60,026 nt of DNA from a phage, in the sequence record PV806339.1. One strand, written 5' to 3'. The notes under the pieces are model-generated. The model ran no database searches. It was given only the letters and a program-made list of their open reading frames with translations, and was not told the origin of the DNA. This document shows positions 17,292 to 32,499 of this stretch, piece after piece. Position numbers and translations under genes: made by a program. Each line of letters begins with the position of its first letter. The first letter of the stretch is position 1.

Positions 17292-18980
17292 ATGGCTTTG
17301 AGCGGACTGCGCCCCGCGCGCGAACAGTTTAACCAAGCAATCTACGACGCCCTTAACGGGGCGTACCAGCTTTACGTTCAGGACGTCTTCGGTCAGGCTG
17401 CGGCCAACCAGACGTACTACATGGCGAAGTGGATGAAGTTGAAGGCCGGGTCTTATACGGCGGTCATGTATGTCGATGACTCCGGCACCCTGTCTATCGA
17501 TCATGCCGTCGTCGCGACTGCGGCCATCGGCACCAATCCGAACAGCGGGGAGTTTACGATCTCCGCCGACGGCGTGTACCGCTTTGACTGCATCTACTCC
17601 AACGTCCCGGCCGACACCCCGGCGTACATGGCATTCCAGCTAATCCTTGACGGCCAGACCGTCGAGGTTAGCCGGGCCAACGACTTTATCGCGGACATCG
17701 TGCCGATCCCGGATAAGGCATTGGGGCCGAAGCCGCCATACTCCGACGACGTCCGCCTGACGTACCCGGTGTTCCTGCCGCTGCCGAACTGGAAAGACGG
17801 CGTCACCGAGCGCATCGAGTGGCAAACTGACGTCATGATTTCCGAGTCCGGCGCAGAACAGCGACGCCCGATCCGCCTGCACCCTCGCCGCTCATTCGAA
17901 GCGACGTTCCTGCGTTGGGAAGAAAAGCGTACGCTGCTCGATACGACCATCGCGGGCGTCGGCCAGTCTCCGTTACTCCTGCCTTTGTGGCACGACATGA
18001 CAGCCACGGAAAACGATGCGCCAGCCGGGTCGGTGGACATCTTCGGCCAGTTCCGGGTGAAAGACTTCAACGTGGGTGACGTGGTCATGTTCAACCGTGG
18101 CACGACGTGGGACTATGAGACGAACATCATCGCCGGGCTGGACATTGACGCCGGGCATATGACGCTGACGTTTGGCCTCCAGTCGGACACGCCGCGAGGC
18201 ACGCGCCTGTATCCGGTTCGCGTTGCGCAGATCCGGGAGGCGATGAACGGCCAGCAGATGACCGATAGCGTGTCACAGACCCAAGTCCGGTTCTTCTGCA
18301 CCGAGAACTATGACCTGACGCCATCGTGGTCAGACTTCCCTGTCTACACCCGTACCGGGCTGCACATCTTCGTCCTGCCGGAAGATTGGGGATCGTCCAA
18401 TGAAATCACGTCTGACCGCCTGACCTACAATTTCGATAACCAGTCCGGCCCGGTGGTCATTGTTGACCCGGGCGGCCAGAACTACGGCACCGTGAAGAAG
18501 TCGTACACCATTAACGGCCGCACAGCGGATCGGCAGTTCCGGCAGATCCTGTTCGCGCTCCGTGGCCGCACCAAGACTTTCCACCTGCCGCTCGATACGA
18601 ATGACTTCATTCTGTCCCGCGACATCAACCCGGCCGACGGCGCGCTCGTAGTCCGGCGCTGCGGTTATACTCAGTACATCGGCGGGACGCAGGAAACGAA
18701 ACGTGACATCATGGTCGAACTGTACGACGGCACCAGAATCCCGACCACCATCATTTCGAGTCGTATCGTTGGGGATGAAGAGTGGCTATTCCTGTCACAG
18801 TCCATCCCGGCGACGTCCAGAAACGACGTCCGGCGCATCGGATATATCCCCGTAGCGCGATTAGATGTTGACGGAATCGAAATAAAACGGTTGACTGACT
18901 CGGCGGGCGTAAGTCAAGTTTCTCTGACCTTCAAGTTTTTCGACGATCGGAGGATTGCAACGCCCTTACCATTATCATAA
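17292..18980 (+). CDS. minor (distal) tail protein (562 aa)
   Basis: First ORF after tape measure; synteny. Confidence 0.5.
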   Translation: MALSGLRPAREQFNQAIYDALNGAYQLYVQDVFGQAAANQTYYMAKWMKLKAGSYTAVMYVDDSGTLSIDHAVVATAAIGTNPNSGEFTISADGVYRFDCIYSNVPADTPAYMAFQLILDGQTVEVSRANDFIADIVPIPDKALGPKPPYSDDVRLTYPVFLPLPNWKDGVTERIEWQTDVMISESGAEQRRPIRLHPRRSFEATFLRWEEKRTLLDTTIAGVGQSPLLLPLWHDMTATENDAPAGSVDIFGQFRVKDFNVGDVVMFNRGTTWDYETNIIAGLDIDAGHMTLTFGLQSDTPRGTRLYPVRVAQIREAMNGQQMTDSVSQTQVRFFCTENYDLTPSWSDFPVYTRTGLHIFVLPEDWGSSNEITSDRLTYNFDNQSGPVVIVDPGGQNYGTVKKSYTINGRTADRQFRQILFALRGRTKTFHLPLDTNDFILSRDINPADGALVVRRCGYTQYIGGTQETKRDIMVELYDGTRIPTTIISSRIVGDEEWLFLSQSIPATSRNDVRRIGYIPVARLDVDGIEIKRLTDSAGVSQVSLTFKFFDDRRIATPLPLS

Positions 18981-20050: not shown

Positions 20051-20289
20051 TGAGCAGACACGACGAGCCGCAGGATCAGCCGCGCATCTTTATGCGCCAT
20101 GCCCGGAAACTCGGGTATTGCAAAAACGGGTCGGAGCGCTTGGCCGAGCGCTTCGGAATCACCTTCGAACAATTCCTACGGGAAGGCTACCCGGTAGCGG
20201 AAGCCATGAAGTCCGCAAACCCGCTGCTGCGTAAAGCCGCAGCCGTGGCCCAACAAGAATGGGACGAGGCGCACGCACATGGGAAGTAA
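20050..20289 (+). CDS. hypothetical protein (79 aa)
   Basis: ORF overlapping neighbours in tail module. Confidence 0.35.
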   Translation: MSRHDEPQDQPRIFMRHARKLGYCKNGSERLAERFGITFEQFLREGYPVAEAMKSANPLLRKAAAVAQQEWDEAHAHGK

Positions 20290-23200
20290 AGCCAAGAAGA
20301 TTACGGTTGGGTACAAATACTACATGGGCCTGTTTATGGGCCTTTTCCGTGGCCCGGTGAATGAGATTGTCGAGATCCGCGTGGGCGACCGTACCGCGTG
20401 GACAGGCTCAATCACTGGCAACACAACCATCCAGATTAACCGCGAAGACTTGTTCGGCGGCACGAAGGCGGAAGGCGGCATTGATGGCCCGCTAGAACTG
20501 TACATGGGCGCGCCGACGCAGACCGTCAGCCAGAAGTTAAAGAACATGCTCGGTGGCCGCCAGCCGGAATTCCGTGGTGTCGTTACCGCGTATTTCGACG
20601 GCCTGATCTGCGCCATGAACCCATACCCGAAGCAGTGGAAATTCAAGGCCCGCCGCTCTACGGCCGGGTGGACTGGCGGCGTCTGGTATCCGGAAAAATG
20701 TCTGGTCAAGATGCAGGGGTACGACGGTCAGGGCAATCAGCACGAAATCCATGCCATGAACCCTGCGCACATCCTGTATGAGTGCCAGTCGAACTTCGAA
20801 TGGGGCCGTGGCCTGTCACGCTCGCTTATCGACGATACGACGTTCCGCCTTGTGGCCGACACCCTGTTTAACGAGAACTTCGGCCTTTGCATCCGATGGA
20901 ACCGTCAGGACACGCTCGAATCGTTCATGCAGCTTATCCTCGACCACATTGGCGGTGCGATGTACGTCAGCAAAGTGACGGGCAAACTGTCCCTGCGGTT
21001 GATCCGGAAGGACTACGACTTCGACACGCTGCCGATCTTCGACACGGATTCCGGGCTGCTGTCCATTCAGGAAGCGACCAACGCGTCTCCGGCCAATCTG
21101 GTTAACGAAGTGGTCGTGACCTACCACAACCCGATCATGGACGAAGACCAGCAGGTGCGTAGCCACAACCTCGCGCAGATCCAGAATCAGGGCTGTCTGA
21201 ACAGCAACACGATTGAATACCTCGGCATCCCTACCGGGAAACTGGCGATGCAGGTGGCACAGCGTGACTTGCGCGCCGCGTCTACCAACGTCCGCCGTTT
21301 CACCGTGATCTGTGACCGCCGGGCATGGAACGTGCAGCCGGGCGACGTGCTGAAAGTGCGTGACCCGAAACAGCGCGGCCTGACCGAAGTTGTTATCCGC
21401 GTCGGTACCGTTGAAGATGGCACGCTGCCGGACGGCAAGATCAAGATTGTCGCGCTGCAAGACCAGTTCGCCTTCCAGTTAAACACGTTCAACCAAGTCG
21501 AGCCACCATCCGGATACGAGCCTGACCTGACTCCCGCGATTGCCCGCCGTATCGTGTACGAAATGCCGTACGTGGATCTGGTGCAGCAGCTACCGGACGG
21601 CGAACTGAACGCCGTTGGCCCGAACGATGCGTTCATCAACTCGCAGGCCGAGAAGCCGACTGACATGTCCGCCGCGTATGACATGGGTATCATGGCCGAA
21701 GGTGAATCGGGCTTCGACATCCGTGGCAACGGTGACTTCGGCGCGTTCGGATCACTGGCCGCCGACATCGACTACCTGTCAACGCAAATCGTTCTGTCCG
21801 AAATGACCGACATGTGGGACGACGTGCAGCCCGGATTTGTGGCGCGCATCGCCAAGCCTGTTCTTGACGGCCAACGCACGCAGATGGAAATCGCGGAAGA
21901 GTTTGTCCGCATCGACGCCATCAATGGCAACGTGATTACCGTGGCGCGCGGCGTACTTGACACCATCCCATTCCGCCACCAGAAAAGCGAAATGCTTTGG
22001 GTGACGACGTACGACGGCGGTACCGACTGGCAGAAATACGCGGGCAACGAGTCCATCGACATCAAGATTCTGCCGTGGACATTGGGCGGTGGCCGCTTCC
22101 CGATTGAAGATGCGCCGATTGATCATCTGGACATGGACTTCCGCCAGATCCGCCCATACCCGCCGGGCAACGTGCAGCACTATCTCGCTTCGACGTCAAC
22201 GCTGCAACGCTGGTATGTCCCGTCCGCGCTTACCTACACGGCCAACGCCGGGGAAACGCCTGACACGTACACCCTGACTTGGGCGCACCGCGACCGTATC
22301 CTGCAAGCGGATAAGCCTGTGCCGCACACCGACGGCGACATCGGGCCAGAACCGGGTACCACGTACACCATCCGCGTCTACAATCAGGAAGGCACGTTAG
22401 TTCGCACCGAATCCGGCATCAACGGCACGTCGTGGAATTGGCCGTACGCAACCGCAGCGGCTGACATGAATGTCGAAGCCAGTCTGTTCGACCCGGTGCT
22501 CGCGACGCTCCGCCTGACGTCTGTCCGCAGTGGCCGCGAAAGTTGGGAATACTACGAAATGAAGGTCAGCGTTTATAAAAAGCCGCCGCAGTTCGTGTAT
22601 GACGCCAGCCTGATGCAGTTCGCCGCGCAGCCGTACAACGCCGCCAGTGATCCTAACCCGCCAACGCCACCGATGGACGGCCCGTATGTTTCGTCCCTGA
22701 TGCAGTTCGCCGCGCAGCCGGATGGTAGCGGTGATTTCGGCGAAGCAGATAGCATGAGTGGCCCGAACGTGGCGCTGCTGCCGCACCAAGTTACGCAGAC
22801 GTCGTCCATCATTACGCCGCTCGATACGCTGCTGTACGAAACACCGTACATCCAGTTATCCCGCGACGGCCGTGACCTGAACACGTCGAAAGTCAGCGCG
22901 TACGTGGCGCGTTCGTCCGACCGTACCGTCGATTCGTATACCCTGTTCACCAAGCATGAAGCCGATGCGGATTACGCTTCCGCCGGGACTCAGCCGTGGA
23001 CACCGTGGGGCATGACAACCGTCGGCCTCGGCTTCTTCACGGACGAAGTGACGATTGACCCGACGTCGGATAAAGACGGCGTTCCTATCGCGGGCGCGCA
23101 GGTGGGCGATCTTCTGCTTATCGATCAGGAATTGATGTCCATCACCGCCATCAACGGCCGCACGTACAAGATTGGGCGTGGCGTGGCTGACACCATTCCG

Positions 23201-24169
23201 GCGCAGCACTACAGCCGCCGTCCGGTCTGGCTGATCTCCGTGGGCTTCGGCTACTCCGACATGGCATTCGGCGATAACGAAAAGGCGATGGTCATCGTCC
23301 GCCCGGATACCTACGGCACCGACATCCCGCTGAACAAGCTGTACCCGCTCCAGTTGCAGATGCAGTACCGCCCGAAACGTCCATACCCGCCGGGCCTGAT
23401 GATGATTGGCGGCCAACCGTTCTTCAACACCGCGAGCGGACTGGCAGACGATTTCAACCCGTACAACAACCTGAAAGCGAAAGACGTGGCCTGCACGTAC
23501 GCCCACCGCAACCGCGTAACTCAGGCAAACACGGCGCGCGACCATTTCGCCGTCGGTATCAACCCGGAACCGGGCGTGAAGTACCGCGTGCGTATCGGCT
23601 ATGCGTACTGGTCGCAGTCCGGCAGTGGATTCTCGCTGCTGTCTCAGTTCGACACGGAAGACGCGGGCTTCATCATGCGCGCGGCCGACCTTGAACGTTG
23701 GGGCCGTCAGGCGGGCTATGCGCAAGACGCTGGCGGATACTCCACGTTAAACGTGACCGTCAACGCGATTCGTGATGGAATGCTGAACTGGCAGGGATAC
23801 ACGATGACCGTGCGCGTGCCGTCCTTCCCGCTTCCTCCGGGTCAGAAACCGGGCGGTGGCGATGGGCCGTGGAACCCGCCGGGCGGAGGCAATACAGGCG
23901 GTACCACGCCACCTACGGAGCCGCCGGATCGTCCAGACCCGAGCGAGCCGGGTACAACCGACCCATCCGAGCCGACCAAGCCGGACGAACCGGAAGATCC
24001 GCAACCGCCTGTAGACCCGGAAGACCCGGATACTGATCCGCCGACTCCGCCAGACCCGCCGATCGACCCGACCAACGTGCCGGGCTGGTCATTGAGTTGG
24101 GATCACGGTTGGGCGATGACGCTGCCAGATTTCCGATACGTTCCACCAGCAGAAGAGGAACCTGAATAA
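20279..24169 (+). CDS. host specificity / central tail fibre protein (1296 aa)
   Basis: Largest tail-tip ORF; Pro/acidic low-complexity C-terminus; internal repeat SLMQFAAQP x2. Confidence 0.6.
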   Translation: MGSKAKKITVGYKYYMGLFMGLFRGPVNEIVEIRVGDRTAWTGSITGNTTIQINREDLFGGTKAEGGIDGPLELYMGAPTQTVSQKLKNMLGGRQPEFRGVVTAYFDGLICAMNPYPKQWKFKARRSTAGWTGGVWYPEKCLVKMQGYDGQGNQHEIHAMNPAHILYECQSNFEWGRGLSRSLIDDTTFRLVADTLFNENFGLCIRWNRQDTLESFMQLILDHIGGAMYVSKVTGKLSLRLIRKDYDFDTLPIFDTDSGLLSIQEATNASPANLVNEVVVTYHNPIMDEDQQVRSHNLAQIQNQGCLNSNTIEYLGIPTGKLAMQVAQRDLRAASTNVRRFTVICDRRAWNVQPGDVLKVRDPKQRGLTEVVIRVGTVEDGTLPDGKIKIVALQDQFAFQLNTFNQVEPPSGYEPDLTPAIARRIVYEMPYVDLVQQLPDGELNAVGPNDAFINSQAEKPTDMSAAYDMGIMAEGESGFDIRGNGDFGAFGSLAADIDYLSTQIVLSEMTDMWDDVQPGFVARIAKPVLDGQRTQMEIAEEFVRIDAINGNVITVARGVLDTIPFRHQKSEMLWVTTYDGGTDWQKYAGNESIDIKILPWTLGGGRFPIEDAPIDHLDMDFRQIRPYPPGNVQHYLASTSTLQRWYVPSALTYTANAGETPDTYTLTWAHRDRILQADKPVPHTDGDIGPEPGTTYTIRVYNQEGTLVRTESGINGTSWNWPYATAAADMNVEASLFDPVLATLRLTSVRSGRESWEYYEMKVSVYKKPPQFVYDASLMQFAAQPYNAASDPNPPTPPMDGPYVSSLMQFAAQPDGSGDFGEADSMSGPNVALLPHQVTQTSSIITPLDTLLYETPYIQLSRDGRDLNTSKVSAYVARSSDRTVDSYTLFTKHEADADYASAGTQPWTPWGMTTVGLGFFTDEVTIDPTSDKDGVPIAGAQVGDLLLIDQELMSITAINGRTYKIGRGVADTIPAQHYSRRPVWLISVGFGYSDMAFGDNEKAMVIVRPDTYGTDIPLNKLYPLQLQMQYRPKRPYPPGLMMIGGQPFFNTASGLADDFNPYNNLKAKDVACTYAHRNRVTQANTARDHFAVGINPEPGVKYRVRIGYAYWSQSGSGFSLLSQFDTEDAGFIMRAADLERWGRQAGYAQDAGGYSTLNVTVNAIRDGMLNWQGYTMTVRVPSFPLPPGQKPGGGDGPWNPPGGGNTGGTTPPTEPPDRPDPSEPGTTDPSEPTKPDEPEDPQPPVDPEDPDTDPPTPPDPPIDPTNVPGWSLSWDHGWAMTLPDFRYVPPAEEEPE

Positions 24170-24909
24170 TGCCGAAAAAGACAGCCCCGAATCAGGGGCT
24201 ACCCTACGGGTGGATTCGCGGGGAAGACTATTGGGGTGGCCCGATGTCCGACTCGCAAATCTTCCTCGACACCACGCTATTCCTGACACTGGAATCGCTG
24301 ACCTTCTCCGCTCCGCCGCCTAACGCGGTGGACGGGGCCACCTACGTCGTCGCGGCCAACCCGACGGGGGCGTGGGCCGGGCATGAAGGCGATGTGGCCG
24401 TGTACGTGGAAAAGGTCTGGACGTTTTACACGCCTCGCTACGGGTGGCGCGCTCGCGTTCGTTCGTACGAGAAGTTCTTGTGGTTCAATGGCACGACGTG
24501 GATTGACGAGGCGACCGGGGAAGACCCGGTCAACCCTGACCCTGACCCAAGCGTTAAGCCGAAATGGTACGACATCGGGGTGACGGTGTCGGACAGCATG
24601 TACGCGAATGAGCCTGTCGTGCATCTGCCGATCCTTGACCCGATGTACCTGCCCGCCAACATGGTAGGATCTCAGTTTGACATGGCCGACGGTGCAAGCC
24701 CGGCCTATTATCAATTCCGCGTGCAGCGCAACGGCCAGAACGTCGCAACGATGACCGTGGAAATCGGAAACTTCAACGCGTCGTTTACCACTACCGGGGG
24801 CAACCCGATTTCCTTCGCGGCCGGGGATCGCATGACGGTTCGCGCGCAGCAGGAAGCCGTCGCCGGGATGAAAAACTTTGGCTTCGTAATTCGCATGGGA
24901 CTGGTCTAA
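24169..24909 (+). CDS. hypothetical tail-associated protein (246 aa)
   Basis: ATGA overlap with host specificity gene. Confidence 0.4.
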   Translation: MPKKTAPNQGLPYGWIRGEDYWGGPMSDSQIFLDTTLFLTLESLTFSAPPPNAVDGATYVVAANPTGAWAGHEGDVAVYVEKVWTFYTPRYGWRARVRSYEKFLWFNGTTWIDEATGEDPVNPDPDPSVKPKWYDIGVTVSDSMYANEPVVHLPILDPMYLPANMVGSQFDMADGASPAYYQFRVQRNGQNVATMTVEIGNFNASFTTTGGNPISFAAGDRMTVRAQQEAVAGMKNFGFVIRMGLV

Positions 24910-24918
24910 GGGGATCAC

Positions 24919-25926
24919 ATGGCAAGTTATTTTGATGGATATGAGCAGTTCCGGTCTACGGACAAGTCTAACCCGGGAACCTTTATGCGGCTCGCCGGGT
25001 ACACGGTTCGCGGTGCAATCTCCGCAGGTCTTGGTCGCCTCCAGACGAGCATCGGCCTGTACACACTGAACAGCGCCTACGAGCGCGATTGGACGTGGGG
25101 CGGTGACACCCTTACCATCGGCTTCGCGTGCAAGCAGCAGGCGCGTGGCGCGCTATTTGGGCTAAAGGTCGGTGACGCCACTGGCCGCGATGTTCCGCAT
25201 GTCGTTGTCTACACTGACCCGGTGTCGGCGCTCGTCACCATCCAGACCGGGCCAGACCAGTCGGAAGTCGGGTATGTCACGCCGATCCCGACACGCTGGT
25301 ATTACTATGAAGTCGTGATGAACCGCGCCACGAAGGTTATCGAGGTGTTTGTCAACGGGAAATCGGACGTAGCCTATACACTGCCGGACGTCCTTGCGGC
25401 GTCGGCCGTCGTGCGCATGGTCTTCAACCCGTTCGACATGCTGCCATCGTTCCCGGCCGACGCGGAGTACACGGAAGACACGAAGGTATTCGACGACATG
25501 TACGCGCAGGACGGCGGCCGCTTAGGGGCCATCCAGATCAGCGGACGTCTGCCGGACGGCGACCGCGATACCGAATGGGGCGTGGCCGGGCCTAACCCAA
25601 CGGCCGCACATAACCAGATGGTCGGCCGACTGCCGCCAGACATGGCAAACAAGTACATCTACACTGGCACGAATGACCGTCACGACTCGTTTATCTCGAC
25701 GAACAAACTGCCGGATAACGGGGCCATTCTGGCGCAGGGTCTGATCGCCTTAGTCCGGAAGGCCACGGCCGACCCGGTGTCGATTATCGCGAACATTGAC
25801 AGCCACACTGTTACCCTGTCGAATATCGGCCGTAATTGGGAATATCGTTACGCGCAATTCACCACAAGCGGTTATGATCAGGCCGCCATTGAAGCCGCCG
25901 AATTCGGTGTGCGTTCAGTTCTATAA
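24919..25926 (+). CDS. fibre-like protein, paralog 1 (335 aa)
   Basis: Shares MxxFxDG[YF][DE] N-terminus, WYY[YF]E[VI], I.ISGRLP..D.D.EW and FG[VI] C-terminus with next two ORFs. Confidence 0.5.
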   Translation: MASYFDGYEQFRSTDKSNPGTFMRLAGYTVRGAISAGLGRLQTSIGLYTLNSAYERDWTWGGDTLTIGFACKQQARGALFGLKVGDATGRDVPHVVVYTDPVSALVTIQTGPDQSEVGYVTPIPTRWYYYEVVMNRATKVIEVFVNGKSDVAYTLPDVLAASAVVRMVFNPFDMLPSFPADAEYTEDTKVFDDMYAQDGGRLGAIQISGRLPDGDRDTEWGVAGPNPTAAHNQMVGRLPPDMANKYIYTGTNDRHDSFISTNKLPDNGAILAQGLIALVRKATADPVSIIANIDSHTVTLSNIGRNWEYRYAQFTTSGYDQAAIEAAEFGVRSVL

Positions 25927-25936
25927 AGGGGTTACT

Positions 25937-26899
25937 ATGCTGAAATTTATGGACGGTTTTGACCAGCTACGCGGCTGGTCTGACGTTACGGATGGGCTGA
26001 CCAAATGCGGGTACACCGTGTCTGGCACGCCCACGTTAGAAGAAGGACGCGTGGCTACGCAGATGGCGGTATCACTGCCGGACACGGCCAGCCTGAAACG
26101 CGTGTTCACCTCCGGGGCCACGAAAGTCGTGTTTGGCTTTGCCTTCCGGGCCATCGGTCTGCGCCACACCCTGATCACCATCAAAGATGTCGTGACGATT
26201 ACGTGGAGCGAGACGGACGGGAAGATCACGGCCGCTGGCGGTACCGGAACGGCGGTGCTGCTGCTGGACTTGTGGTACTACATCGAAGTGGTTCTGGACA
26301 AGACCACCAGCACGATCGAGGTGTACGTGAACAACGGGCTGGACATCACCGCGCCATCGCCGTCGAGCGCTAACCCGGTCACTAACTATGAAGTCACATG
26401 GGCGGGCGTTGCCACGGCGCAGTACCTTCTCGACGACCTCCAGTTCATCGACAATCAGCCGGGCAAGTATACCGGGCGCATCGGGCCTATCCAGATCACC
26501 AGTCGCTTGCCGATGGTGGACGTGGACAAAGAATGGTCGCCGTCATCCGGCAACGACCACTACCCGCTCGTCTACAATCAGCCGCCCGTCGAGGGGTCGT
26601 ACATCCAGTCGAACACGTCCGGCGCGACCGACACGTTTCTATCAAACACCGTCATCCCTGATACGCAAAACATTCTGGCCGTCGGCATGACCGTGCTGAA
26701 TAAAAAGTCAGACGTGGACAACCGTCAGTTAGGCATGGTCATCGGCCAAAAAGGCGACACGCAAAAAGAAGTTATCGACGCGGCGCTATCCACGACTGAA
26801 AAGTATAGTTATGCTGTGTTCGAGACGAACGCGGCCGGGCAAGACTGGAATGACGAACGACTCAGCGAAGCGCCGTTCGGCGTCATCGTAAGACCATAA
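25937..26899 (+). CDS. fibre-like protein, paralog 2 (320 aa; start refined from ORF 25796)
   Basis: ATG at 25937 with RBS AAAGGGG after previous stop; paralog of 24919 and 26913 ORFs. Confidence 0.5.
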   Translation: MLKFMDGFDQLRGWSDVTDGLTKCGYTVSGTPTLEEGRVATQMAVSLPDTASLKRVFTSGATKVVFGFAFRAIGLRHTLITIKDVVTITWSETDGKITAAGGTGTAVLLLDLWYYIEVVLDKTTSTIEVYVNNGLDITAPSPSSANPVTNYEVTWAGVATAQYLLDDLQFIDNQPGKYTGRIGPIQITSRLPMVDVDKEWSPSSGNDHYPLVYNQPPVEGSYIQSNTSGATDTFLSNTVIPDTQNILAVGMTVLNKKSDVDNRQLGMVIGQKGDTQKEVIDAALSTTEKYSYAVFETNAAGQDWNDERLSEAPFGVIVRP

Positions 26900-26912
26900 G
26901 GAGCATACCGAA

Positions 26913-27932
26913 ATGTTTAAATTCTGTGACGGGTACGACCACTATGCCGAAATCGGCGTGAAGGGTACGGCCCTACAAGGTTATCTGGAAGCCGCCGGGT
27001 ACGTGGTGCGTAATGCCAGCGATACGACGTTTTCCGTTGTCGAGGGCCGCCGGACAGGTGCGCGTGCGCTGAAATTCACCGTGGCCGCCAGTTCATCGGT
27101 CAACGCCTCGCTGTCATGGGGATTCACCACGACGGCCTCGTCAGTCGTCTTCGGATTTGCCATGAAAGCCGGGCTGTCCCGTATGCGTATCGCGCGTATC
27201 GAGAACATCGTGGATATCGAGTGGGACACCACGACCGGGAAAATCCGCGTAGGCGAGCAGTTAGGCGTCAACCCGCTGATCCTGAACGCATGGTACTACT
27301 TCGAAATCGAGATCGATAAGACGGCCAACACCGTCAAGGTCTACGCGAATAACGAATTGCAGTTAACCGTTACGCCATCGAGTGCGCCGACCACCACGTA
27401 CACAATCGTTTGGGGCCAGACGGGTACCGCACCTAATGCGGGCGAACAGACACTGGATGACTTCTACGTGATCGACGGTTCCGGTAGCCGCAACAACGCG
27501 CGCCTGACTCCGGTCGAAGTGACCAGCCGTATGCCGACGGCCGACGTTTCTACGCAGTGGGACGTTGTGAACGCCTCGTCCTCCACGCCGCACTATCAGA
27601 TCGTGTCACAGCTTTCCCCGGGCGGCGAGTCGAAGCCATACCTGCAATCGAACACCGCAGGGGCCACGGATATGTACCGTTCGAACGTGACGCTGCCGAA
27701 CAATAACCAGATCTTCGCCGTATCTGTTATCGCGTACGCCCGTAAAGGCGACCTTGATGATCGTAAACTCGGTCTGGTGGTCAACACGGAAGGCGGTACG
27801 CCGACTGAAATTCAGGTGCCGCTTACCGAGTCGTATAAGTATTATCAGGCATCGTTCGAGCAAGCGCCGGGCGGAAGTGACTGGAACCAGAACAACGTCG
27901 AATCTTTGCAATTCGGCATCATCACGCGATAA
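26913..27932 (+). CDS. fibre-like protein, paralog 3 (339 aa)
   Basis: Paralogous motifs MFKFCDGYDHY, WYYFEIEIDKT, VEVTSRMPTADVSTQW, FGIITR. Confidence 0.5.
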   Translation: MFKFCDGYDHYAEIGVKGTALQGYLEAAGYVVRNASDTTFSVVEGRRTGARALKFTVAASSSVNASLSWGFTTTASSVVFGFAMKAGLSRMRIARIENIVDIEWDTTTGKIRVGEQLGVNPLILNAWYYFEIEIDKTANTVKVYANNELQLTVTPSSAPTTTYTIVWGQTGTAPNAGEQTLDDFYVIDGSGSRNNARLTPVEVTSRMPTADVSTQWDVVNASSSTPHYQIVSQLSPGGESKPYLQSNTAGATDMYRSNVTLPNNNQIFAVSVIAYARKGDLDDRKLGLVVNTEGGTPTEIQVPLTESYKYYQASFEQAPGGSDWNQNNVESLQFGIITR

Positions 27933-27946
27933 GGGAGGGACACACT

Positions 27947-29176
27947 ATGCCTGTAGTATGGCACTGCGGTTTTAATGGTTTTATCAACAATACGTCGGGG
28001 CAGGGTCAGTCGAACCTGTTTATCAACACAAACGATACCGGGACGGTGAGCCATGCCCTCTCCGCCGACAATTTAATTAATAACGTTTTTGGTCGTGGCG
28101 GAAACGGCTACCAAAACGGCGGCTTTCTCCCTTTGATCACTTACTACGGACGTAAATGGTCGTCGTCCGGGTCGTACGGGTCGTCTTATGTTTTTGGTCG
28201 TGTTAAGCCGTCTTTCTTTGATAACTCCGTGCCATGTCTAAGCACCGAACAATACCAACCTGCTAACACTTCCGACTGGTGGGGAGGGTGGCAGTTCCGT
28301 ATCGATTTGTGCTGGCCCTCGGCGGAACGCCTGACGACGTCGTGGCGCATGGGCTTCCGTATTGGCCGCGCAACACACCCCACATACAATATTGGTTATC
28401 AAGTCTATATCTGCCCGGCGGGTATTAACGAAGCAAACGGCCAAGACTTGTATCGTATCTCGATCTCTGCGGGTCAGGACGAGAAGTATATGGAGGTGGA
28501 ATGGTTGGCGGACAGCAAGACCCTTAACATCTATCTGAACGACGAACTTGTCTCGACCCGCACCAACTATACTGCCAACGATATGTCGTACGGCCTTATT
28601 TTGATGTGCGAACATTTCGTTGGCACTAACACTAGCTCCACACCGTTCTTCGGTTTTGAACTGCGGGACATGTATGTCCAGAAAATCGTTTCAGATGCAG
28701 ATCAACGCCTCGGGTCTTCGACGAAAGTATATGCGTTCAATCCCGTTAATGACGATGTTGTACAGTTCTCTCGGCCAGACGCATATTCGTCAAACGCCGC
28801 CGTCGCGGTAACGCCGATCGCTCCCGGGGGTATCACCCCGACGCCGTCGCAATCTCCCGCAATTCTCGGGGCGGACGTGGTCGGACAGCAAGACCTGTAT
28901 AACATTGACATTTCCAAAGTCAGCACACGTCTGGCGTCGATTGAAGCGGTCAACGTCCGGACGATGGCCCGAAATCCGTTGCTTGGAAATAGACAATCTG
29001 CCGCGATCGCTAAATCCGGGGCGACCCAAACCCAAAGCGAGAACACATCGACGCTCGAACAAGGCGGCCTGTGGCGTTTCAACACGTTGCAGATGGTGTC
29101 TGACCCGGCGGACGGCGCACGTTGGAACCTTACAAAACTGGCCGGGCTTAAAGTCGGTACCAAATTCGTCGCGTAA
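27947..29176 (+). CDS. fibre-like protein, divergent paralog 4 (409 aa)
   Basis: Gly/Asn-rich N-terminus; weaker shared motifs; position in the tandem array. Confidence 0.4.
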   Translation: MPVVWHCGFNGFINNTSGQGQSNLFINTNDTGTVSHALSADNLINNVFGRGGNGYQNGGFLPLITYYGRKWSSSGSYGSSYVFGRVKPSFFDNSVPCLSTEQYQPANTSDWWGGWQFRIDLCWPSAERLTTSWRMGFRIGRATHPTYNIGYQVYICPAGINEANGQDLYRISISAGQDEKYMEVEWLADSKTLNIYLNDELVSTRTNYTANDMSYGLILMCEHFVGTNTSSTPFFGFELRDMYVQKIVSDADQRLGSSTKVYAFNPVNDDVVQFSRPDAYSSNAAVAVTPIAPGGITPTPSQSPAILGADVVGQQDLYNIDISKVSTRLASIEAVNVRTMARNPLLGNRQSAAIAKSGATQTQSENTSTLEQGGLWRFNTLQMVSDPADGARWNLTKLAGLKVGTKFVA

Positions 29177-29185
29177 GGGGGCCAT

Positions 29186-31381
29186 GTGGCTGATGAAGAC
29201 GTAGGTATCAGCGCGGCCAAGTTGGTCGGCGAAGCCTTGCAGTGGAATGGCGAGAAGCCCAAACTCACATACCTGTCCCGGTGTGTAGGGGAAGCGTTAG
29301 CCATTTCCGCATTGAACATGGACGCGGCGAAAAACTTCGGGGAGGTTTTGCAGTGGGACGGTAAATTGCCGTCCATCTTCCGCGCCTCCAGACTGGTCGG
29401 CGAAGTGCTGGCGATTCAAAAGATGGAGATCCGCGCATCGTCAATGATTTGCGAAGCGCTGGTCAAAGAGCCGCAATTTATGGCGGCCGAAATGATCTGC
29501 GAGGCTATCGGTCAGGCGGCCACGGAACGGCCACCGCTTTACGCAGATGCGGTGTATGAGTATGTCACGCAGCACGACGTCGTACCGCCTTTGTCGGAAG
29601 TCATTTCTCCGGAAAGTCTGTACACGTTGTGGAATTACGCCATTGTCCAGCGGCCGATCGATGACCCGATTTCCTACAACATCGTGAAGCAGGCGGTGAC
29701 GCTGTCCGTTCTGGCGTCGCCTATCGTGACCATTTCGTACGACAAGGTGAAGACCGCGTGGTCGTATGCTGTGGTGTCCGCGACGCTCGGTGACTTCCCG
29801 CTGCCGGATGAAATGTGGTCGAAGATCAGCACGAAGCAGGTCTGGAATCTGGTATTGCAGTCGATCGACATCCCGTACGTCCCGACGTCTGGTGTGTTCG
29901 TTCGTCATGAATCGACGCTGGTGGTTCAGGCCCATCCGCTGCCGATGTACACGACGCCTGCGTCCGTGAAGTCGAACGCGGTTCTGGCCGCGCAGAAGCG
30001 CCCGGTTGAACGACTCCCGCGCTCAATGACTCGCGTGGCGCAGGGATTATCGCAGGCCGTTACCGCGCTGCCGATCCCGATGCCACGGTCTGACGTGTTC
30101 GCCGCGCAGATGCTGTCACAGGCTGTAATCCCGGCCGACTTCGTTGACCCGACTGTCGGCGTCGAGCACGCGGCCGCAGTGACGTCGTACGCCGTTTGCG
30201 AGTATCAGGTGTCGCTTCCTATCAGTTACACGCGCGCGAAGTCCCTGACGCCGCTGGTGCTGCAATTTAGCGATAACCAACGAGTCATTCCGCTGTCCAC
30301 GATGCGCACCAAACATGTTTCGTCTCAGTTCTTGGTCAAGTCTGACTTGCTCCCGGTGCTGTCCACGATGCGCACCGAACATGTTTCGTCTCAGTTCTTG
30401 GTCAAGTCTGACTTGCTCCCGGTGCTGTCTCGGACGCGCGTTAAACAGGTACGCGGCTATGCAGTGCGGGCGGAAGAGTACACGCCTCCGATTAACCTGC
30501 TGGTGTGGTCGCGCGCTGACGCTGTTCGCATGTCGGTGGTGCAGCAGGCAACGGACTACCCTGACCCGGGAATCCCTACAACGTCGGCCATCGTCAGCGC
30601 GGCCACGGCGTACCACGTCATGAAAGCGCTGGACTACGAAGATCCGAACGACATGTGGGAGGCGAGCAAGGTTCAGATCGTGCCGCAGTTCTTAGAGAAG
30701 GTGGTGAAAGCCCAACCGCTGCGGCTCCCGATCTCGTACGCTCCGCTGGCGCAATTTGTTGAACTGGTGACGCGGTACCAGTACATGCCGCCTCCGGGCG
30801 AAGTCGCCGAGTCCGGTATCCATGTTCGTCAGGTGATGCAGCCAGTGGCGTTCCGCGCGACGTACCCTGACCCGACTGTCCCGGTATCCCACCTGACGGT
30901 CAATCAGGTGCTGGAGCACATCGCGATCCCGGCCGACTATCCGGACGTCCACCTGCCGACGTCGGACGCGATTGTAAATCAGGTATTGGAACACGTTGCG
31001 CAGATTGACGATTTCCCTGATCCCGGTACCATGTTCCGGCCGCTTATTGTCAGCCAGATCATTCAGCAGGCGGCACAGGATGCGTCTTACCCGGATTGGA
31101 GCACACTGCATAAACCGCTTGCGGTTCAGCAGGTAATTCAGCATGTATCAATGACGGCGGAATACCCTGACAAGGACGTCCCGCAATCATTTGCAAAAGT
31201 GTCTCAAGTTTTGCAGCACTATGCCGATAAAGCTAATTACCCAGACAAAGATGCTCCCCAATCCACGCTACGAGTCCGTCAGGTACTTGAGCAGGTAATG
31301 ATGCGCGACAAGTCGATGTACGAAATGCCGCAGCCACCACGGAAACATCGGGTGCAAATCACTTGCCGCTTTGTGTACTGA
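29186..31381 (+). CDS. repeat-rich fibre-like protein (731 aa; GTG start)
   Basis: RBS AAGGGGG; periodic ~24-aa repeats (YPDxxxPxSxxxVxQVLxHV...) and a 22-aa exact tandem duplication. Confidence 0.55.
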   Translation: MADEDVGISAAKLVGEALQWNGEKPKLTYLSRCVGEALAISALNMDAAKNFGEVLQWDGKLPSIFRASRLVGEVLAIQKMEIRASSMICEALVKEPQFMAAEMICEAIGQAATERPPLYADAVYEYVTQHDVVPPLSEVISPESLYTLWNYAIVQRPIDDPISYNIVKQAVTLSVLASPIVTISYDKVKTAWSYAVVSATLGDFPLPDEMWSKISTKQVWNLVLQSIDIPYVPTSGVFVRHESTLVVQAHPLPMYTTPASVKSNAVLAAQKRPVERLPRSMTRVAQGLSQAVTALPIPMPRSDVFAAQMLSQAVIPADFVDPTVGVEHAAAVTSYAVCEYQVSLPISYTRAKSLTPLVLQFSDNQRVIPLSTMRTKHVSSQFLVKSDLLPVLSTMRTEHVSSQFLVKSDLLPVLSRTRVKQVRGYAVRAEEYTPPINLLVWSRADAVRMSVVQQATDYPDPGIPTTSAIVSAATAYHVMKALDYEDPNDMWEASKVQIVPQFLEKVVKAQPLRLPISYAPLAQFVELVTRYQYMPPPGEVAESGIHVRQVMQPVAFRATYPDPTVPVSHLTVNQVLEHIAIPADYPDVHLPTSDAIVNQVLEHVAQIDDFPDPGTMFRPLIVSQIIQQAAQDASYPDWSTLHKPLAVQQVIQHVSMTAEYPDKDVPQSFAKVSQVLQHYADKANYPDKDAPQSTLRVRQVLEQVMMRDKSMYEMPQPPRKHRVQITCRFVY
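30293..30424 (+). repeat. 66-bp tandem direct repeat, 2 copies, 65/66 identical, inside fibre-like CDS
   Basis: Copy 1 30293-30358, copy 2 30359-30424; single a/g difference at 30311 vs 30377. Confidence 0.9.
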
Positions 31382-31402
31382 CAATTGACGGGTTAATATT
31401 CT

Positions 31403-31428
31403 TAGCGGGCTTGTCCCGCTAATTTTTT
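31403..31428 (+). terminator. Rho-independent terminator after fibre genes
   Basis: Stem TAGCGGG / CCCGCTA followed by ATTTTTT. Confidence 0.6.
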
Positions 31429-31443
31429 GTGAGGAAGCACCCA

Positions 31444-31782
31444 ATGAGCGAAATGGAACGGGAACGGCCGGGGGATAACTCCGGCGGCATCAAGTTAGAC
31501 TTGTCTGTCAATCTCCCCACGATTCTGACGATGGCTTCGATGCTGGTGGCGGCGGTACTGTACGTCAACAACCGCTTCGCCGACCTATCAAACCAGAACA
31601 CGCAGACGGACACCCGGCTTACCAACGTCGAGAAACGTCAGGACTCCACTGACGCGGCGTTCACGGTTCTCCGGGCCGAAACCGTCTCGCAAAACTCCGC
31701 CCTTCGTTCAGACCTTCGCGCCGACATGCGCGACCTGAAACAAAGCGTGGATACCCTATCTTCCCAAATGATGAGGAAATAA
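31444..31782 (+). CDS. putative holin (single TM, about 112 aa)
   Basis: RBS GAGGAAG; one TM LPTILTMASMLVAAVLYV; first gene of lysis cassette. Confidence 0.4.
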   Translation: MSEMERERPGDNSGGIKLDLSVNLPTILTMASMLVAAVLYVNNRFADLSNQNTQTDTRLTNVEKRQDSTDAAFTVLRAETVSQNSALRSDLRADMRDLKQSVDTLSSQMMRK

Positions 31783-31785
31783 CCG

Positions 31786-32499
31786 ATGGCTAAACAGAAG
31801 CCGCGCGGGATTCGCAATAACAACCCGGGCAACATCGAGTGGGGGTCGCCGTGGCAAGGGCTGATCCCGCGCAGTGAAGCGACGGACAGCCGCTTCGCAC
31901 AGTTCAAAGACCCGGCATCCGGCATCCGCGCCATTGCCGTCACTCTGACCACCTACTACGACAAGCGCAAAGCGAATGACGGTAGCAAAATCGACTCGGT
32001 GCGAGAAGTTATCGAGCGGTGGGCACCCGCCGTTGAGAACAACGTATCGGCCTACGCTAAACAGGTTGCCGCCGTTCTGGCCGTTGACCCGAATAGCGAA
32101 ACGCTGAACCTCCACGACTACGACACCATGCGCGGTCTGGTGGAAGGCATCATCCGCCACGAAAACGGGAACCCGGAAGCGTTCGGCCTGACGTCGTACA
32201 GCAACGCGAATACGTGGTACTCGGACGAAGTGATCGAGGAAGGTCTGCGCCGGGCGGGCATCGTTAAGGCGGCCAAGCCTGTTAACCGTACCACCGTGGC
32301 CGCGACAAGCGTGGCAGGACTCGGCGCGGCGCAACTGGTTGACATGGTACAGCCCGTCAAGGCTGCGATGGACAGCGCCCACGGTGATATTTCTTCCGGT
32401 GATTGGGTACGCATCGCATTCGGCGCGGCCACAATCGCGATTGGCCTGTACATGGGATGGGTCGCGTACCGGAAGCATCGGGCCGGGGCCGCTGCATGA
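31786..32499 (+). CDS. putative endolysin with C-terminal transmembrane helix (237 aa)
   Basis: Position between holin-like and spanin genes; N-terminal RGIRNNNPGNIEWG motif; C-terminal TM WVRIAFGAATIAIGLYMGWVAY; enzyme family not verified. Confidence 0.4.
   Translation: MAKQKPRGIRNNNPGNIEWGSPWQGLIPRSEATDSRFAQFKDPASGIRAIAVTLTTYYDKRKANDGSKIDSVREVIERWAPAVENNVSAYAKQVAAVLAVDPNSETLNLHDYDTMRGLVEGIIRHENGNPEAFGLTSYSNANTWYSDEVIEEGLRRAGIVKAAKPVNRTTVAATSVAGLGAAQLVDMVQPVKAAMDSAHGDISSGDWVRIAFGAATIAIGLYMGWVAYRKHRAGAAA

What the first reader, a model, noticed from the sequence alone, without database searches (positions are those of the whole stretch)
29186..31381. Highly repetitive fibre-like protein with a recent 66-bp tandem duplication
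The 731-aa protein is built from degenerate ~24-aa periodic repeats (YPDxxxPxSxxxVxQVLxHV, also xxVGEALxW near the N-terminus). At 30293-30424 two 66-bp copies are 65/66 identical, encoding VLSTMRT(K/E)HVSSQFLVKSDLLP twice. Near-identity implies a very recent duplication and a slippage-prone site that could vary fibre length between isolates.
Basis: seen in the sequence. Interest (0 to 1): 0.6.

Follow-up and report, generated by a model that had tools for sequence, protein, structure and literature searches.

The report
Repeat-built virion protein gaining repeat units
A tail-module protein of a Chi-like flagellum-dependent Salmonella phage is made of about 24 short repeats. It has just gained one extra repeat by a 66-bp tandem duplication, something that has happened repeatedly in related phages, but it is not the protein experimentally shown to be the tail fibre.

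Summary
ORF 29186-31381 encodes a 731-aa protein, and 30293-30358 and 30359-30424 are 65/66 identical in-frame copies.

The window is a Chivirus (Chi-like, flagellum-dependent siphophage). The gene is the homologue of YSD1_35, Chi gene 36 and JS26 gp49. It is not the homologue of YSD1_29, the protein labelled as the tail fibre, whose homologue lies at 20279-24169.

The protein has about 24 Ser-anchored repeats. Their period is 22-23 aa in the middle and 25 aa at the C-terminus. There are also 37-aa N-terminal repeats and a near-invariant C-terminal cap.

Most relatives have one copy of the duplicated unit (709 aa). At least five separate repeat-unit duplications exist in the group:
- three breakpoints at the window's unit;
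- duplication of the neighbouring 66-bp unit (Siskin, BPS2, BPS4, sal2);
- a 111-bp N-terminal unit (KKP 3829).

Deeper relatives differ by indels close to whole units (about 22, 41-44 and 36-40 aa, plus some shorter N-terminal gaps). So this is a hotspot of unequal recombination or slippage.

The JS26 homologue is a low-copy virion protein (88% peptide coverage) and is essential. No solved Chi or YSD1 structure contains the family, and AlphaFold2 monomers fail. Placement in the flexible fibre is therefore plausible but unproven. Interest is moderate.

The parts
29186..31381 (+). Gene for the 731-aa repeat protein (GTG start, TGA stop). It is the homologue of YSD1_35, Chi gene 36, iEPS5_038 and JS26 gp49, and belongs to PHROG 7226.
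   Evidence: About 100 Chi-like phage records hold it at 90-98.5% nucleotide identity.
29176..29181 (+). Ribosome-binding site AGGGGG, 4 nt before the GTG start. It overlaps the stop codon of the preceding gene.
   Evidence: Sequence. Siskin annotates a ribosome-binding site and the same start.
29219..29515 (+). N-terminal repeat region (about aa 12-110) with a 37-aa period (VGEALxxx...GEVLQW). It is the most variable part of the family.
   Evidence: Autocorrelation lag 37, z=9.5. KKP 3829 carries an exact 111-bp duplication of one unit here. Relatives have 36-40-aa indels here, plus some shorter gaps.
29588..31303 (+). Array of about 24 Ser-anchored repeats (aa ~135-706; core P-x-S-x3-V-x-Q). 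The period is 22-23 aa in the middle and 25 aa at the C-terminal end.
   Evidence: Conserved Ser positions in the 90-sequence family alignment: 141, 163, 184, 212, 235, 257, 280, 302, 415, 465, 517, 568, 593, 618, 643, 668, 693. Supported by autocorrelation and hhalign of one repeat against the whole protein.
30185..30250 (+). Upstream 66-bp segment bounded by TGACG microhomologies (30180-30184 and 30246-30250). It lies about two-thirds of a repeat out of register with the window's unit. It is single here but tandemly duplicated in Siskin, BPS2, BPS4, sal2 and a serovar Bonariensis contig.
   Evidence: Alignment; junction search; protein sequences.
30293..30358 (+). Copy 1 of the duplicated 66-bp unit, encoding LSTMRTKHVSSQFLVKSDLLPV. 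It is identical to the single unit of YSD1.
30359..30424 (+). Copy 2 of the unit, encoding LSTMRTEHVSSQFLVKSDLLPV. It has one difference from copy 1, G at 30377 versus A at 30311. The junction is GCTGTC|CACGATG.
30425..30490 (+). Next, paralogous repeat unit (LSRTRVKQVRGYAVRAEEYTPP). Its first ~16 nt (CTGTCTCGGACGCGC) are homologous to the start of the duplicated unit and hold the alternative crossover points seen in relatives.
   Evidence: 27/66 identity to the unit, concentrated at the 5' end. Junction variants VLST|MRT, VLSR|MRT and VLSRTR|TKH occur in relatives.
30854..31303 (+). Six clean 25-aa repeats (aa 557-706; xxYPDxxxPxSxxxVxQVLxHVA).
   Evidence: hmmsearch with a repeat profile, 44-47 bits each.
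31304..31378 (+). Near-invariant C-terminal cap (RDKSMYEMPQPPRKHRVQITCRFVY).
   Evidence: Invariant columns D708, Y712, P715, P717, P718, R719, R722, I725, C727, R728, V730, Y731 in 24 sequences down to 35% identity. It is still recognisable in the 90-sequence consensus.
31402..31432 (+). Intrinsic-terminator-like hairpin plus T-run. It closes the late structural operon before the lysis genes.
   Evidence: Siskin annotates a terminator at the same place.
20279..24169 (+). Context: homologue of YSD1_29 / Chi BH2P (1296 aa, J-like hub plus flexible C-terminus). This is the protein shown experimentally to label the fibre.
   Evidence: PDB 8VJH chain A, full-length match. PMC12264135.
24169..29176 (+). 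Context: a DUF2793 'tail fiber protein' (24169-24909) and four PHROG 2448 paralogues (24919-25926, 25937-26899, 26913-27932, 27947-29176). They lie between the hub gene and the repeat gene.
   Evidence: None has a solved structure. The JS26 counterparts gp50-gp55 are all found in virions.

Best explanation
The gene encodes a low-copy structural protein of the tail-tip/fibre module of a Chi-like, flagellum-dependent siphophage. It belongs to the YSD1_35 / JS26 gp49 family. The protein is modular. It has a few 37-aa N-terminal repeats, about 24 Ser-anchored repeats of 22-25 aa, and a near-invariant 25-aa C-terminal cap.

Neighbouring repeat units keep short stretches of DNA homology exactly one unit (66 bp) apart. 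These allow replication slippage or unequal recombination between adjacent units, which adds or removes exactly one repeat in frame. The window carries such an event: unit 30293-30358 is duplicated at 30359-30424. The crossover lies in the shared GCTGTC, and one substitution has occurred since.

The event is tolerated because it adds one more module to a repetitive structure. Similar events have occurred repeatedly in the group.

Shown here:
- the duplication;
- its polymorphism;
- the multiple independent breakpoints;
- indels of about one or two repeat units across the family (with some shorter N-terminal gaps);
- virion presence and essentiality of a distant homologue.

Inferred:
- the protein sits in the flexible, unresolved fibre or tip appendage, probably as an oligomer;
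- one extra unit changes its length by only a few nanometres;
- the polymorphism is near-neutral.
For: Identity and context:
- megablast and tblastn place the window in Chivirus. The gene maps to YSD1_35, iEPS5_038, Chi gene 36 and Siskin_036.
- It is the last gene of the tail module, after the J-like hub, a DUF2793 protein and four PHROG 2448 paralogues. A terminator and the lysis genes follow.

Repeats.

Polymorphism:
- Most records span 2130 bp.
- The same unit is duplicated with other breakpoints in iEPS5, Utah, TS13, ER3 and ABTNLsp1.
- A window-type junction on a different allele occurs in P0002, P0138 and P0141.
- An upstream 66-bp segment is duplicated in Siskin, BPS2, BPS4, sal2 and P0158.
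- KKP 3829 has a 111-bp N-terminal unit duplication.
- In each of the four genomes compared at the DNA level, the two copies share that genome's own allele. ABTNLsp1 is an exception, with L in copy 1 and R in copy 2.
- Family indels are about 22, 41-44 and 36-40 aa, with some shorter N-terminal gaps. The distant homologues P0044-P0048 (contigs of 18-62 kb) lack the unit altogether.
- The microhomologies GCTGTC and TGACG lie exactly 66 bp apart.

Structural role:
- JS26 gp49 (same position in the genome, 27.7% identity) gave 68 unique peptides, 1241 spectra and 87.9% coverage in purified virions. That is 1.8 spectra per residue. The trimeric J-like hub gp56 gives 2.2, the tube 37 and the capsid 76 (PMC8754663 Tables S5/S6).
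- All virion proteins, and the whole block gp46-gp84, are Tn-seq essential (preprint 10.64898/2025.12.19.695335).
- The family profile matches no PDB chain, while Chi's hub and distal tail protein are in 8VJH. The protein is therefore not in the resolved capsid, neck, tube or tip.
Against: - No experiment places this protein in the fibre. Immunogold labelling and neutralisation in YSD1 point to YSD1_29.
- Virion presence and essentiality come from a 28%-identical homologue, not from this phage.
- AlphaFold2 gave no usable fold (pLDDT 31 with 24 sequences, 39 with 90). The secondary structure of the repeats flipped from helix to strand between runs.
- Phages 35, 37, ST-101 and ST-118 have a 1-bp deletion that splits the gene. 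If real, this argues against essentiality in Salmonella phages. It may instead be a sequencing error.
- A single old duplication followed by gene conversion between copies and with the next unit could mimic some of the 'independent' events at the window's unit.
- The window's own duplication cannot be checked against reads.
Confidence: 0.65

Rival explanations
1. The protein is a virion component but not part of the long fibre. It could be a flexible tip accessory such as short side filaments. It could also be an assembly scaffold or chaperone for the hub's C-terminal fibre that stays bound in the particle.
For: - Only YSD1_29 has been labelled on the fibre.
- The protein is unresolved in the Chi tip map, as a flexible accessory would be.
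- It is the last gene of the tail module, a position often held by fibre assembly proteins.
- AlphaFold2 finds no autonomous fold.
Against: - Coverage of 88% and a spectral count per residue close to that of the hub in JS26 virions argue for a stoichiometric component rather than a trace chaperone.
- At 700 aa and about 24 repeats it is large for a chaperone.
- A 220-nm fibre is hard to build from the ~530 residues of the hub beyond its J-like part. This last point is my estimate.
Confidence: 0.22
2. The copy-number changes are adaptive. The site would be a contingency-like locus that tunes fibre length or avidity to different flagella or hosts, not a near-neutral polymorphism.
For: - Duplications recur within the same ~200 bp and in the N-terminal repeats.
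- Two-copy alleles occur in phages isolated on different hosts, for example Utah on E. coli.
Against: - Only 1- and 2-copy states were seen. No allele of three or more copies appeared among about 100 records and the 43 listed members of three protein clusters.
- The unit is long (66 bp) and always in frame, unlike phase-variable simple repeats.
- One unit is about 3% of the protein.
- No host correlation was tested.
Confidence: 0.1
3. The window's duplication is an assembly or sequencing artefact.
For: Tandem repeats of 132 bp can be mis-assembled from short reads. This exact allele is found nowhere else.
Against: - The two copies differ by a substitution, the reading frame is preserved, and the unit boundary coincides with a protein repeat.
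- Independent assemblies of related phages and Salmonella-isolate contigs carry the same kind of duplication at the same unit.
Confidence: 0.04
4. The database labels found on some homologues are right, and the protein is a capsid protein, a site-specific recombinase or an endolysin.
For: Annotations read 'putative capsid protein | site-specific recombinase' in phages 35 and 37, 'putative endolysin 2' in SB5, and 'Putative capsid protein' for JS26 gp49.
Against: - There is no Pfam hit of any kind, and the PHROG family has unknown function.
- No match to any solved chain, including those from the YSD1 and Chi capsid structures.
- Abundance in JS26 is about 40-fold below the capsid protein per residue.
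- The gene sits in the tail module.
Confidence: 0.01

Closest known systems
YSD1_35 / Chi gene 36 / iEPS5_038 / Siskin_036 / JS26 gp49 (PHROG 7226, 'unknown function')
   Same: Full-length homologues: 87-98% amino-acid identity within Chivirus and 28% in JS26. They hold the same position as the last gene of the tail module and share the repeat architecture and C-terminal cap. JS26 gp49 is a virion protein and is essential.
   Different: The window's allele has one extra 22-aa repeat, with a K-to-E change, that is found in no other sequence. None of these homologues has an assigned function or structure.
YSD1_29 / Chi BH2P (CHI_31), the experimentally labelled Chi-type tail fibre protein
   Same: Same phage group and same tail module. 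Both have parts too flexible to resolve by cryo-EM.
   Different: It is a different gene and an unrelated sequence (1296 aa, J-like hub with Phage-tail_3 domain). The window has its own copy at 20279-24169. The gene in this finding is not this protein.
Multi-protein serial fibres and segmented fibrous phage proteins. Examples are the T4 long tail fibre (gp34-37) and T4 fibritin with its C-terminal foldon. These are recalled from general knowledge and were not tested here.
   Same: Several consecutive genes downstream of the hub all encode virion proteins (JS26 gp49-gp56). The architecture is repetitive and ends in a small, highly conserved C-terminal element that could act as a registration or trimerisation motif.
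   Different: There is no sequence or fold similarity. Oligomeric state and location are unknown. The conserved end is C-terminal and the variable end N-terminal, the reverse of most receptor-binding fibres.
Length polymorphism by whole-repeat gain or loss in phage tail proteins, such as tape-measure and collagen-like fibre repeats (general knowledge).
   Same: In-frame duplication or deletion of complete repeat units between short direct repeats, tolerated because the protein is modular.
   Different: The repeat type here (22-25 aa, P-x-S...V-x-Q) is in no Pfam family. No phenotypic effect of the length change has been measured.

Membership tests
YSD1_35 / JS26 gp49 family (PHROG 7226) | Full-length sequence homology | tested here: met
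   phrog_7226 at 1295 bits. YSD1_35 lies under the match. The profile search finds 89 representatives, nearly all 600-750 aa.
YSD1_35 / JS26 gp49 family (PHROG 7226) | Position as the last gene of the tail module, after the J-like hub, a DUF2793 protein and the PHROG 2448 paralogues, and before the lysis cassette | tested here: met
   The gene order matches that of YSD1, iEPS5 and JS26.
YSD1_35 / JS26 gp49 family (PHROG 7226) | Conserved C-terminal cap ...MYxMPxPPRKHRVQIxCRFVY | tested here: met
   Invariant columns 708-731 in alignment A1.
Chi-type tail fibre protein (YSD1_29 / BH2P) | Homology to YSD1_29, the protein labelled on the fibre by immunogold and targeted by neutralising antibodies | tested here: not met
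   The gene maps to YSD1_35. The YSD1_29 homologue is a separate gene at 20279-24169 (PMC12264135).
Virion structural protein | Detected in purified particles | tested here: inconclusive
   Met for the homologue JS26 gp49 (68 peptides, 87.9% coverage). No proteomics data were found for this phage or for Chi or YSD1 (Dunstan 2019 and Sonani 2024 are not held).
Trimeric phage fibre (beta-helix, beta-spiral or coiled-coil shaft) | Recognisable fibre fold or known fibre repeat family | tested here: not met
   No Pfam family and no PDB sequence match. AlphaFold2 pLDDT was 31 and 39. Foldseek gave no hit with E<0.3; the top non-significant hits are beta-solenoids.
Trimeric phage fibre (beta-helix, beta-spiral or coiled-coil shaft) | Homo-oligomeric, elongated assembly | not testable with these tools
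No multimer prediction is available.
Simple-sequence contingency locus (phase variation) | Many copies of a short unit whose gain or loss shifts the frame or promoter spacing | tested here: not met
   The unit is 66 bp (a multiple of 3). Only 1 or 2 copies were seen, always in frame.

The most novel reading that the evidence does not exclude
The repeat protein, and not (only) the hub's C-terminus, is the thread that lies in the grooves of the flagellar filament. Each 22-25-aa Ser-anchored repeat would be one periodic contact with the flagellin lattice. Gain and loss of repeats would then tune the register and avidity of the 'nut-and-bolt' grip. The variable N-terminal repeats would form the distal end, and the invariant C-terminal cap would anchor it to the particle.
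Probability: 0.1. Interest if true: 0.75.

Novelty: new member of a known kind. Interest (0 to 1): 0.4.

Why it matters
Chi-like phages are the model for flagellum-dependent infection, yet the composition of their single 220-nm fibre is unsettled.

- Only YSD1_29 has been labelled on the fibre. Esteves et al. note that the assignment has not been shown for Chi itself.
- Seven consecutive tail-module genes encode virion proteins in JS26. Of their homologues in Chi, only the hub appears in a solved structure.
- This gene is the largest of the unassigned ones. It is essential in JS26, repetitive, and naturally polymorphic in repeat number.

Natural 709-, 731- and 746-aa alleles therefore give a ready-made length series. 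They could be used to test whether the protein is part of the fibre and whether its length matters for adsorption.

The repeat-unit hotspot is also a practical warning. Short-read assemblies and annotations of this gene can be wrong; it is split, or labelled capsid, recombinase or endolysin, in several records.

Tried and rejected
- **AlphaFold2, two jobs.** With 24 sequences the pLDDT was 31. With 90 sequences it was 39, and only residues ~40-110 reached 50-72, as a beta-meander. Secondary structure of the repeats disagreed between runs, so no fold claim is made.
- **Foldseek.** The better model against the PDB gave nothing significant.
- **Sequence searches.** Pfam and a PDB search with the family profile gave no hits.
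- **First junction census.** A 60-bp query at E<=1e-13 returned nothing, so I repeated it with 100-bp junction queries.
- **IMG/VR.** It gave only four loci, all single-copy.
- **Papers not held.** The key papers Dunstan 2019, Sonani 2024 and Choi 2013 are not in the library. Whether YSD1_35 or Chi gene 36 was seen by mass spectrometry or in maps could not be read directly.
- **Host-range test.** I compared the distribution of the distal tail protein with that of the repeat protein. The two co-occur one-to-one in the enterobacterial Chi-like group. This gave no test of a link to flagella, because the non-flagellotropic relatives did not appear.
- **Rejected readings.**
  - The YSD1_29 fibre protein.
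  - A capsid protein, recombinase or endolysin.
  - A phase-variable simple repeat.
  - A chance repeat.
Full report
**1. Observation**

The ORF listing gives a 731-aa ORF at 29186-31381 on the + strand, starting with GTG. It is preceded by AGGGGG and followed by a hairpin plus T-run at 31402-31432.

Tandem Repeats Finder reports one strong array in the gene: 30292-30429, period 66, 2.1 copies, 98% match, no indels. Copy 1 (30293-30358) and copy 2 (30359-30424) differ at a single base, 30311 A versus 30377 G. They encode LSTMRT(K/E)HVSSQFLVKSDLLPV twice. Random 66-mers from the same gene share 16.9 +/- 3.9 positions, so 65/66 cannot be chance.

The protein is periodic, but with three periods rather than one of ~24 aa:
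- 25 aa in the C-terminal third (z=12 against shuffles, with harmonics);
- 22 aa in the middle (z=4.7 after one duplicate copy is removed);
- 37 aa in the first 116 residues (z=9.5).

Six clean 25-aa repeats occupy residues 557-706.

In a 90-sequence family alignment the best conserved positions are serines spaced 21-28 residues apart, at 141, 163, 184, 212, 235, 257, 280, 302... 568, 593, 618, 643, 668 and 693. This defines about 24 repeats with a P-x-S...V-x-Q core from residue ~135 to 706. A near-invariant 25-residue C-terminal cap follows. The duplicated 66 bp is exactly one of these units.

**2. What the window and the gene are**

The gene matches about 100 phage records at 90-98.5% nucleotide identity. 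Nearly all are Salmonella Chi-like siphophages (Chivirus, Casjensviridae). In YSD1 the match lies in YSD1_35, in iEPS5 in iEPS5_038, in Chi in gene 36 and in Siskin in gene 036. All are annotated 'hypothetical'.

The protein shown by immunogold labelling and antibody neutralisation to be the YSD1 fibre is YSD1_29. It is identical to Chi BH2P, a J-like hub with a flexible C-terminus (PMC12264135). Its homologue in the window is a different gene, at 20279-24169.

The gene order in the window is:
- hub (1296 aa);
- DUF2793 'tail fiber protein' (246 aa);
- four PHROG 2448 paralogues (335, 320, 339 and 409 aa);
- the repeat protein;
- terminator;
- lysis genes.

It is conserved as far as Serratia phage JS26.

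The family has no Pfam domain, and its PHROG has unknown function. A profile search of 1.84 billion representatives finds only 89 members, nearly all 600-750 aa. tblastn finds it in 160 phage records from Salmonella, Proteus, Providencia, Escherichia, Serratia, Hafnia, Cronobacter and Erwinia phages. In those groups it tracks the full-length distal tail protein one-to-one.

**3. Copy number in relatives**

Most relatives span 2130 bp (709 aa), which is one copy.

Aligning the region and classifying more sequences shows several distinct in-frame duplications.

(a) *The window's unit, with three different junctions.*
- VLST|MRT is found in the window, and also in P0002, P0138 and P0141.
- VLSR|MRT is found in iEPS5, Utah, TS13, P0001, P0140 and P0144.
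- VLSRTR|TKH is found in ABTNLsp1.
- ER3 also carries a junction-spanning duplication of this unit, but its junction type was not examined.

These junctions are what unequal crossovers would produce at different points in the ~16 nt of homology. That homology is shared by the unit (CTGTCCACGATGCGC) and the next, paralogous unit (CTGTCTCGGACGCGC).

(b) *An upstream 66-bp segment.* Window 30185-30250, bounded by TGACG microhomologies and about two-thirds of a repeat out of register with the window's unit, is duplicated in Siskin, BPS2, BPS4, sal2 and P0158.

(c) *An N-terminal unit.* KKP 3829 has an exact 111-bp (37-aa) duplication of one N-terminal repeat.

In each of the four genomes compared at the DNA level, the two copies carry that genome's own allele. 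The window has CAT/GCTCCC, identical to YSD1's single unit. The iEPS5 group and P0002 have CAC/GCGCCC. ABTNLsp1 is an exception, with L in copy 1 and R in copy 2. The window's event is therefore most simply independent of the others. The alternative is one old duplication with repeated gene conversion, which would equally mean an active site.

No phage record carries the window's junction at 95% identity or more. The exact protein is absent from a 15-billion-protein collection.

In the phage collection 12 records hold a repeat-unit duplication. They represent 10 phages among roughly 95-100 records with the gene. No three-copy allele was seen.

Over longer distances the family differs mostly by indels close to whole units:
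- 22 aa missing at residues 246-267 in P0041 and P0042;
- 41-44 aa missing at residues 371-414 in P0044-P0048, which therefore have no copy of the window's unit;
- 36-40-aa gains or losses in the N-terminal region, together with some shorter gaps (11-23 aa).

**4. Is it a structural protein, and where?**

JS26 encodes a homologue with 27.7% identity over 79% of the query and the same neighbours. Counting CDSs makes it gp49. This numbering agrees with the published descriptions of gp32, gp33, gp57 and gp58, and with the coordinates in Table S5.

In purified JS26 virions gp49 gave 68 unique peptides, 1241 spectra and 87.9% coverage (PMC8754663 Table S6). Spectra per residue compare as follows:

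| Protein | Spectra per residue |
|---|---|
| gp49 (repeat protein homologue) | 1.8 |
| gp56 (J-like hub) | 2.2 |
| gp60 (distal tail protein) | 2.7 |
| gp64 (tail tube) | 37 |
| gp69 (major capsid) | 76 |

This is a crude measure, but it points to a few copies per particle.

A Tn-seq preprint reports that every virion protein, and the whole block gp46-gp84, is essential in JS26 (10.64898/2025.12.19.695335).

The Chi tip structure 8VJH contains the hub and the distal tail protein. No PDB chain matches the repeat-protein family, the DUF2793 protein or the two PHROG 2448 paralogues tested (339 and 409 aa).

By elimination, this protein and its neighbours lie in the part of the particle that is too flexible to resolve, namely the fibre or other tip appendages. 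The fibre is 220 nm long. The hub has about 530 residues beyond its J-like part. My own estimate is that this is too few for such a length, which makes a composite fibre plausible. That is inference, not a result.

**5. Structure**

AlphaFold2 failed twice, with pLDDT 31 and 39. Only residues ~40-110 reached 50-72, as a beta-meander. The repeats were modelled as helices in one run and strands in the other. Foldseek found nothing significant; the top non-significant hits are beta-solenoids.

Failure of a monomer prediction with 90 diverse sequences is compatible with an obligate oligomer or a partner-dependent fold. It does not prove either.

**6. Mechanism and verdict**

The best-supported account has four parts.
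- The protein is modular, low-copy and structural, and belongs to the tip/fibre module.
- Its adjacent repeat units retain short homologies one unit apart.
- Slippage or unequal recombination between them adds or deletes whole units.
- The window caught one such event soon after it happened.

One unit is 3% of the protein. I estimate this at a few nanometres at most in any fibrous arrangement, so the polymorphism is probably near-neutral.

Its prediction of copy-number variation is borne out. Its label 'fibre' is plausible but unproven, and must not be confused with the established fibre protein YSD1_29.

The duplication mechanism is ordinary. The interest lies in an uncharacterised, essential, repeat-built virion protein of the model flagellotropic phage group, and in natural length variants that make its role testable.

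Noticed in passing
window 24919-29176: Four consecutive genes (335, 320, 339 and 409 aa) all belong to PHROG 2448, so they are paralogues. JS26 has five, and all are detected in virions (gp50-gp54). None has a Pfam domain. The two tested (339 and 409 aa) have no solved structure.
   Followed up: partly
phage records OR844949, OR848973, OR850062 and similar: Short contigs named as Enterococcus, Listeria or Staphylococcus phages carry 69-98% identical fragments of this Salmonella Chi-like gene.
   Followed up: no
L006 (phage 35), phage 37, ST-101, ST-118; corresponds to about window 30340-30350 for phage 35: These records span 2129 bp. The alignment shows the missing base in phage 35 as GACTT-CTCCC. 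The deletion splits the gene, and the halves are annotated 'putative capsid protein', 'site-specific recombinase' or two hypotheticals. It is either a sequencing error or evidence that the gene can be broken.
   Followed up: partly
window 31786-32499: The 237-aa endolysin-like protein matches PHROG profiles that are parts of very large virion proteins (tape measure, tail injection transglycosylase). Its JS26 counterpart gp47 was detected weakly in virions (3 peptides).
   Followed up: no
window 31429-31782: PHROGs calls this 117-aa protein an 'Rz-like spanin', Siskin's annotators call it a class III holin, and iEPS5 calls it lysis protein B. The JS26 counterpart gp48 is essential but absent from virions. 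The annotations conflict.
   Followed up: no
window 17292-18980: The distal tail protein is 100% identical to that of phage SPN19, whereas the repeat gene is closest (98.5%) to BPS2 and BPS4. This suggests mosaicism within the tail module among Chi-like phages.
   Followed up: no
NCBI Salmonella enterica assemblies (L013, L014; many cluster members): Dozens of Salmonella isolate assemblies contain a ~59-kb contig that is a complete Chi-like phage genome. This suggests that carriage or contamination of cultures by these lytic phages is common.
   Followed up: no
window 29186-31381, minus strand: Several long antisense ORFs (150-224 aa) overlap the gene. They look like by-products of the GC-rich, repetitive coding strand and have no support.
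   Followed up: no
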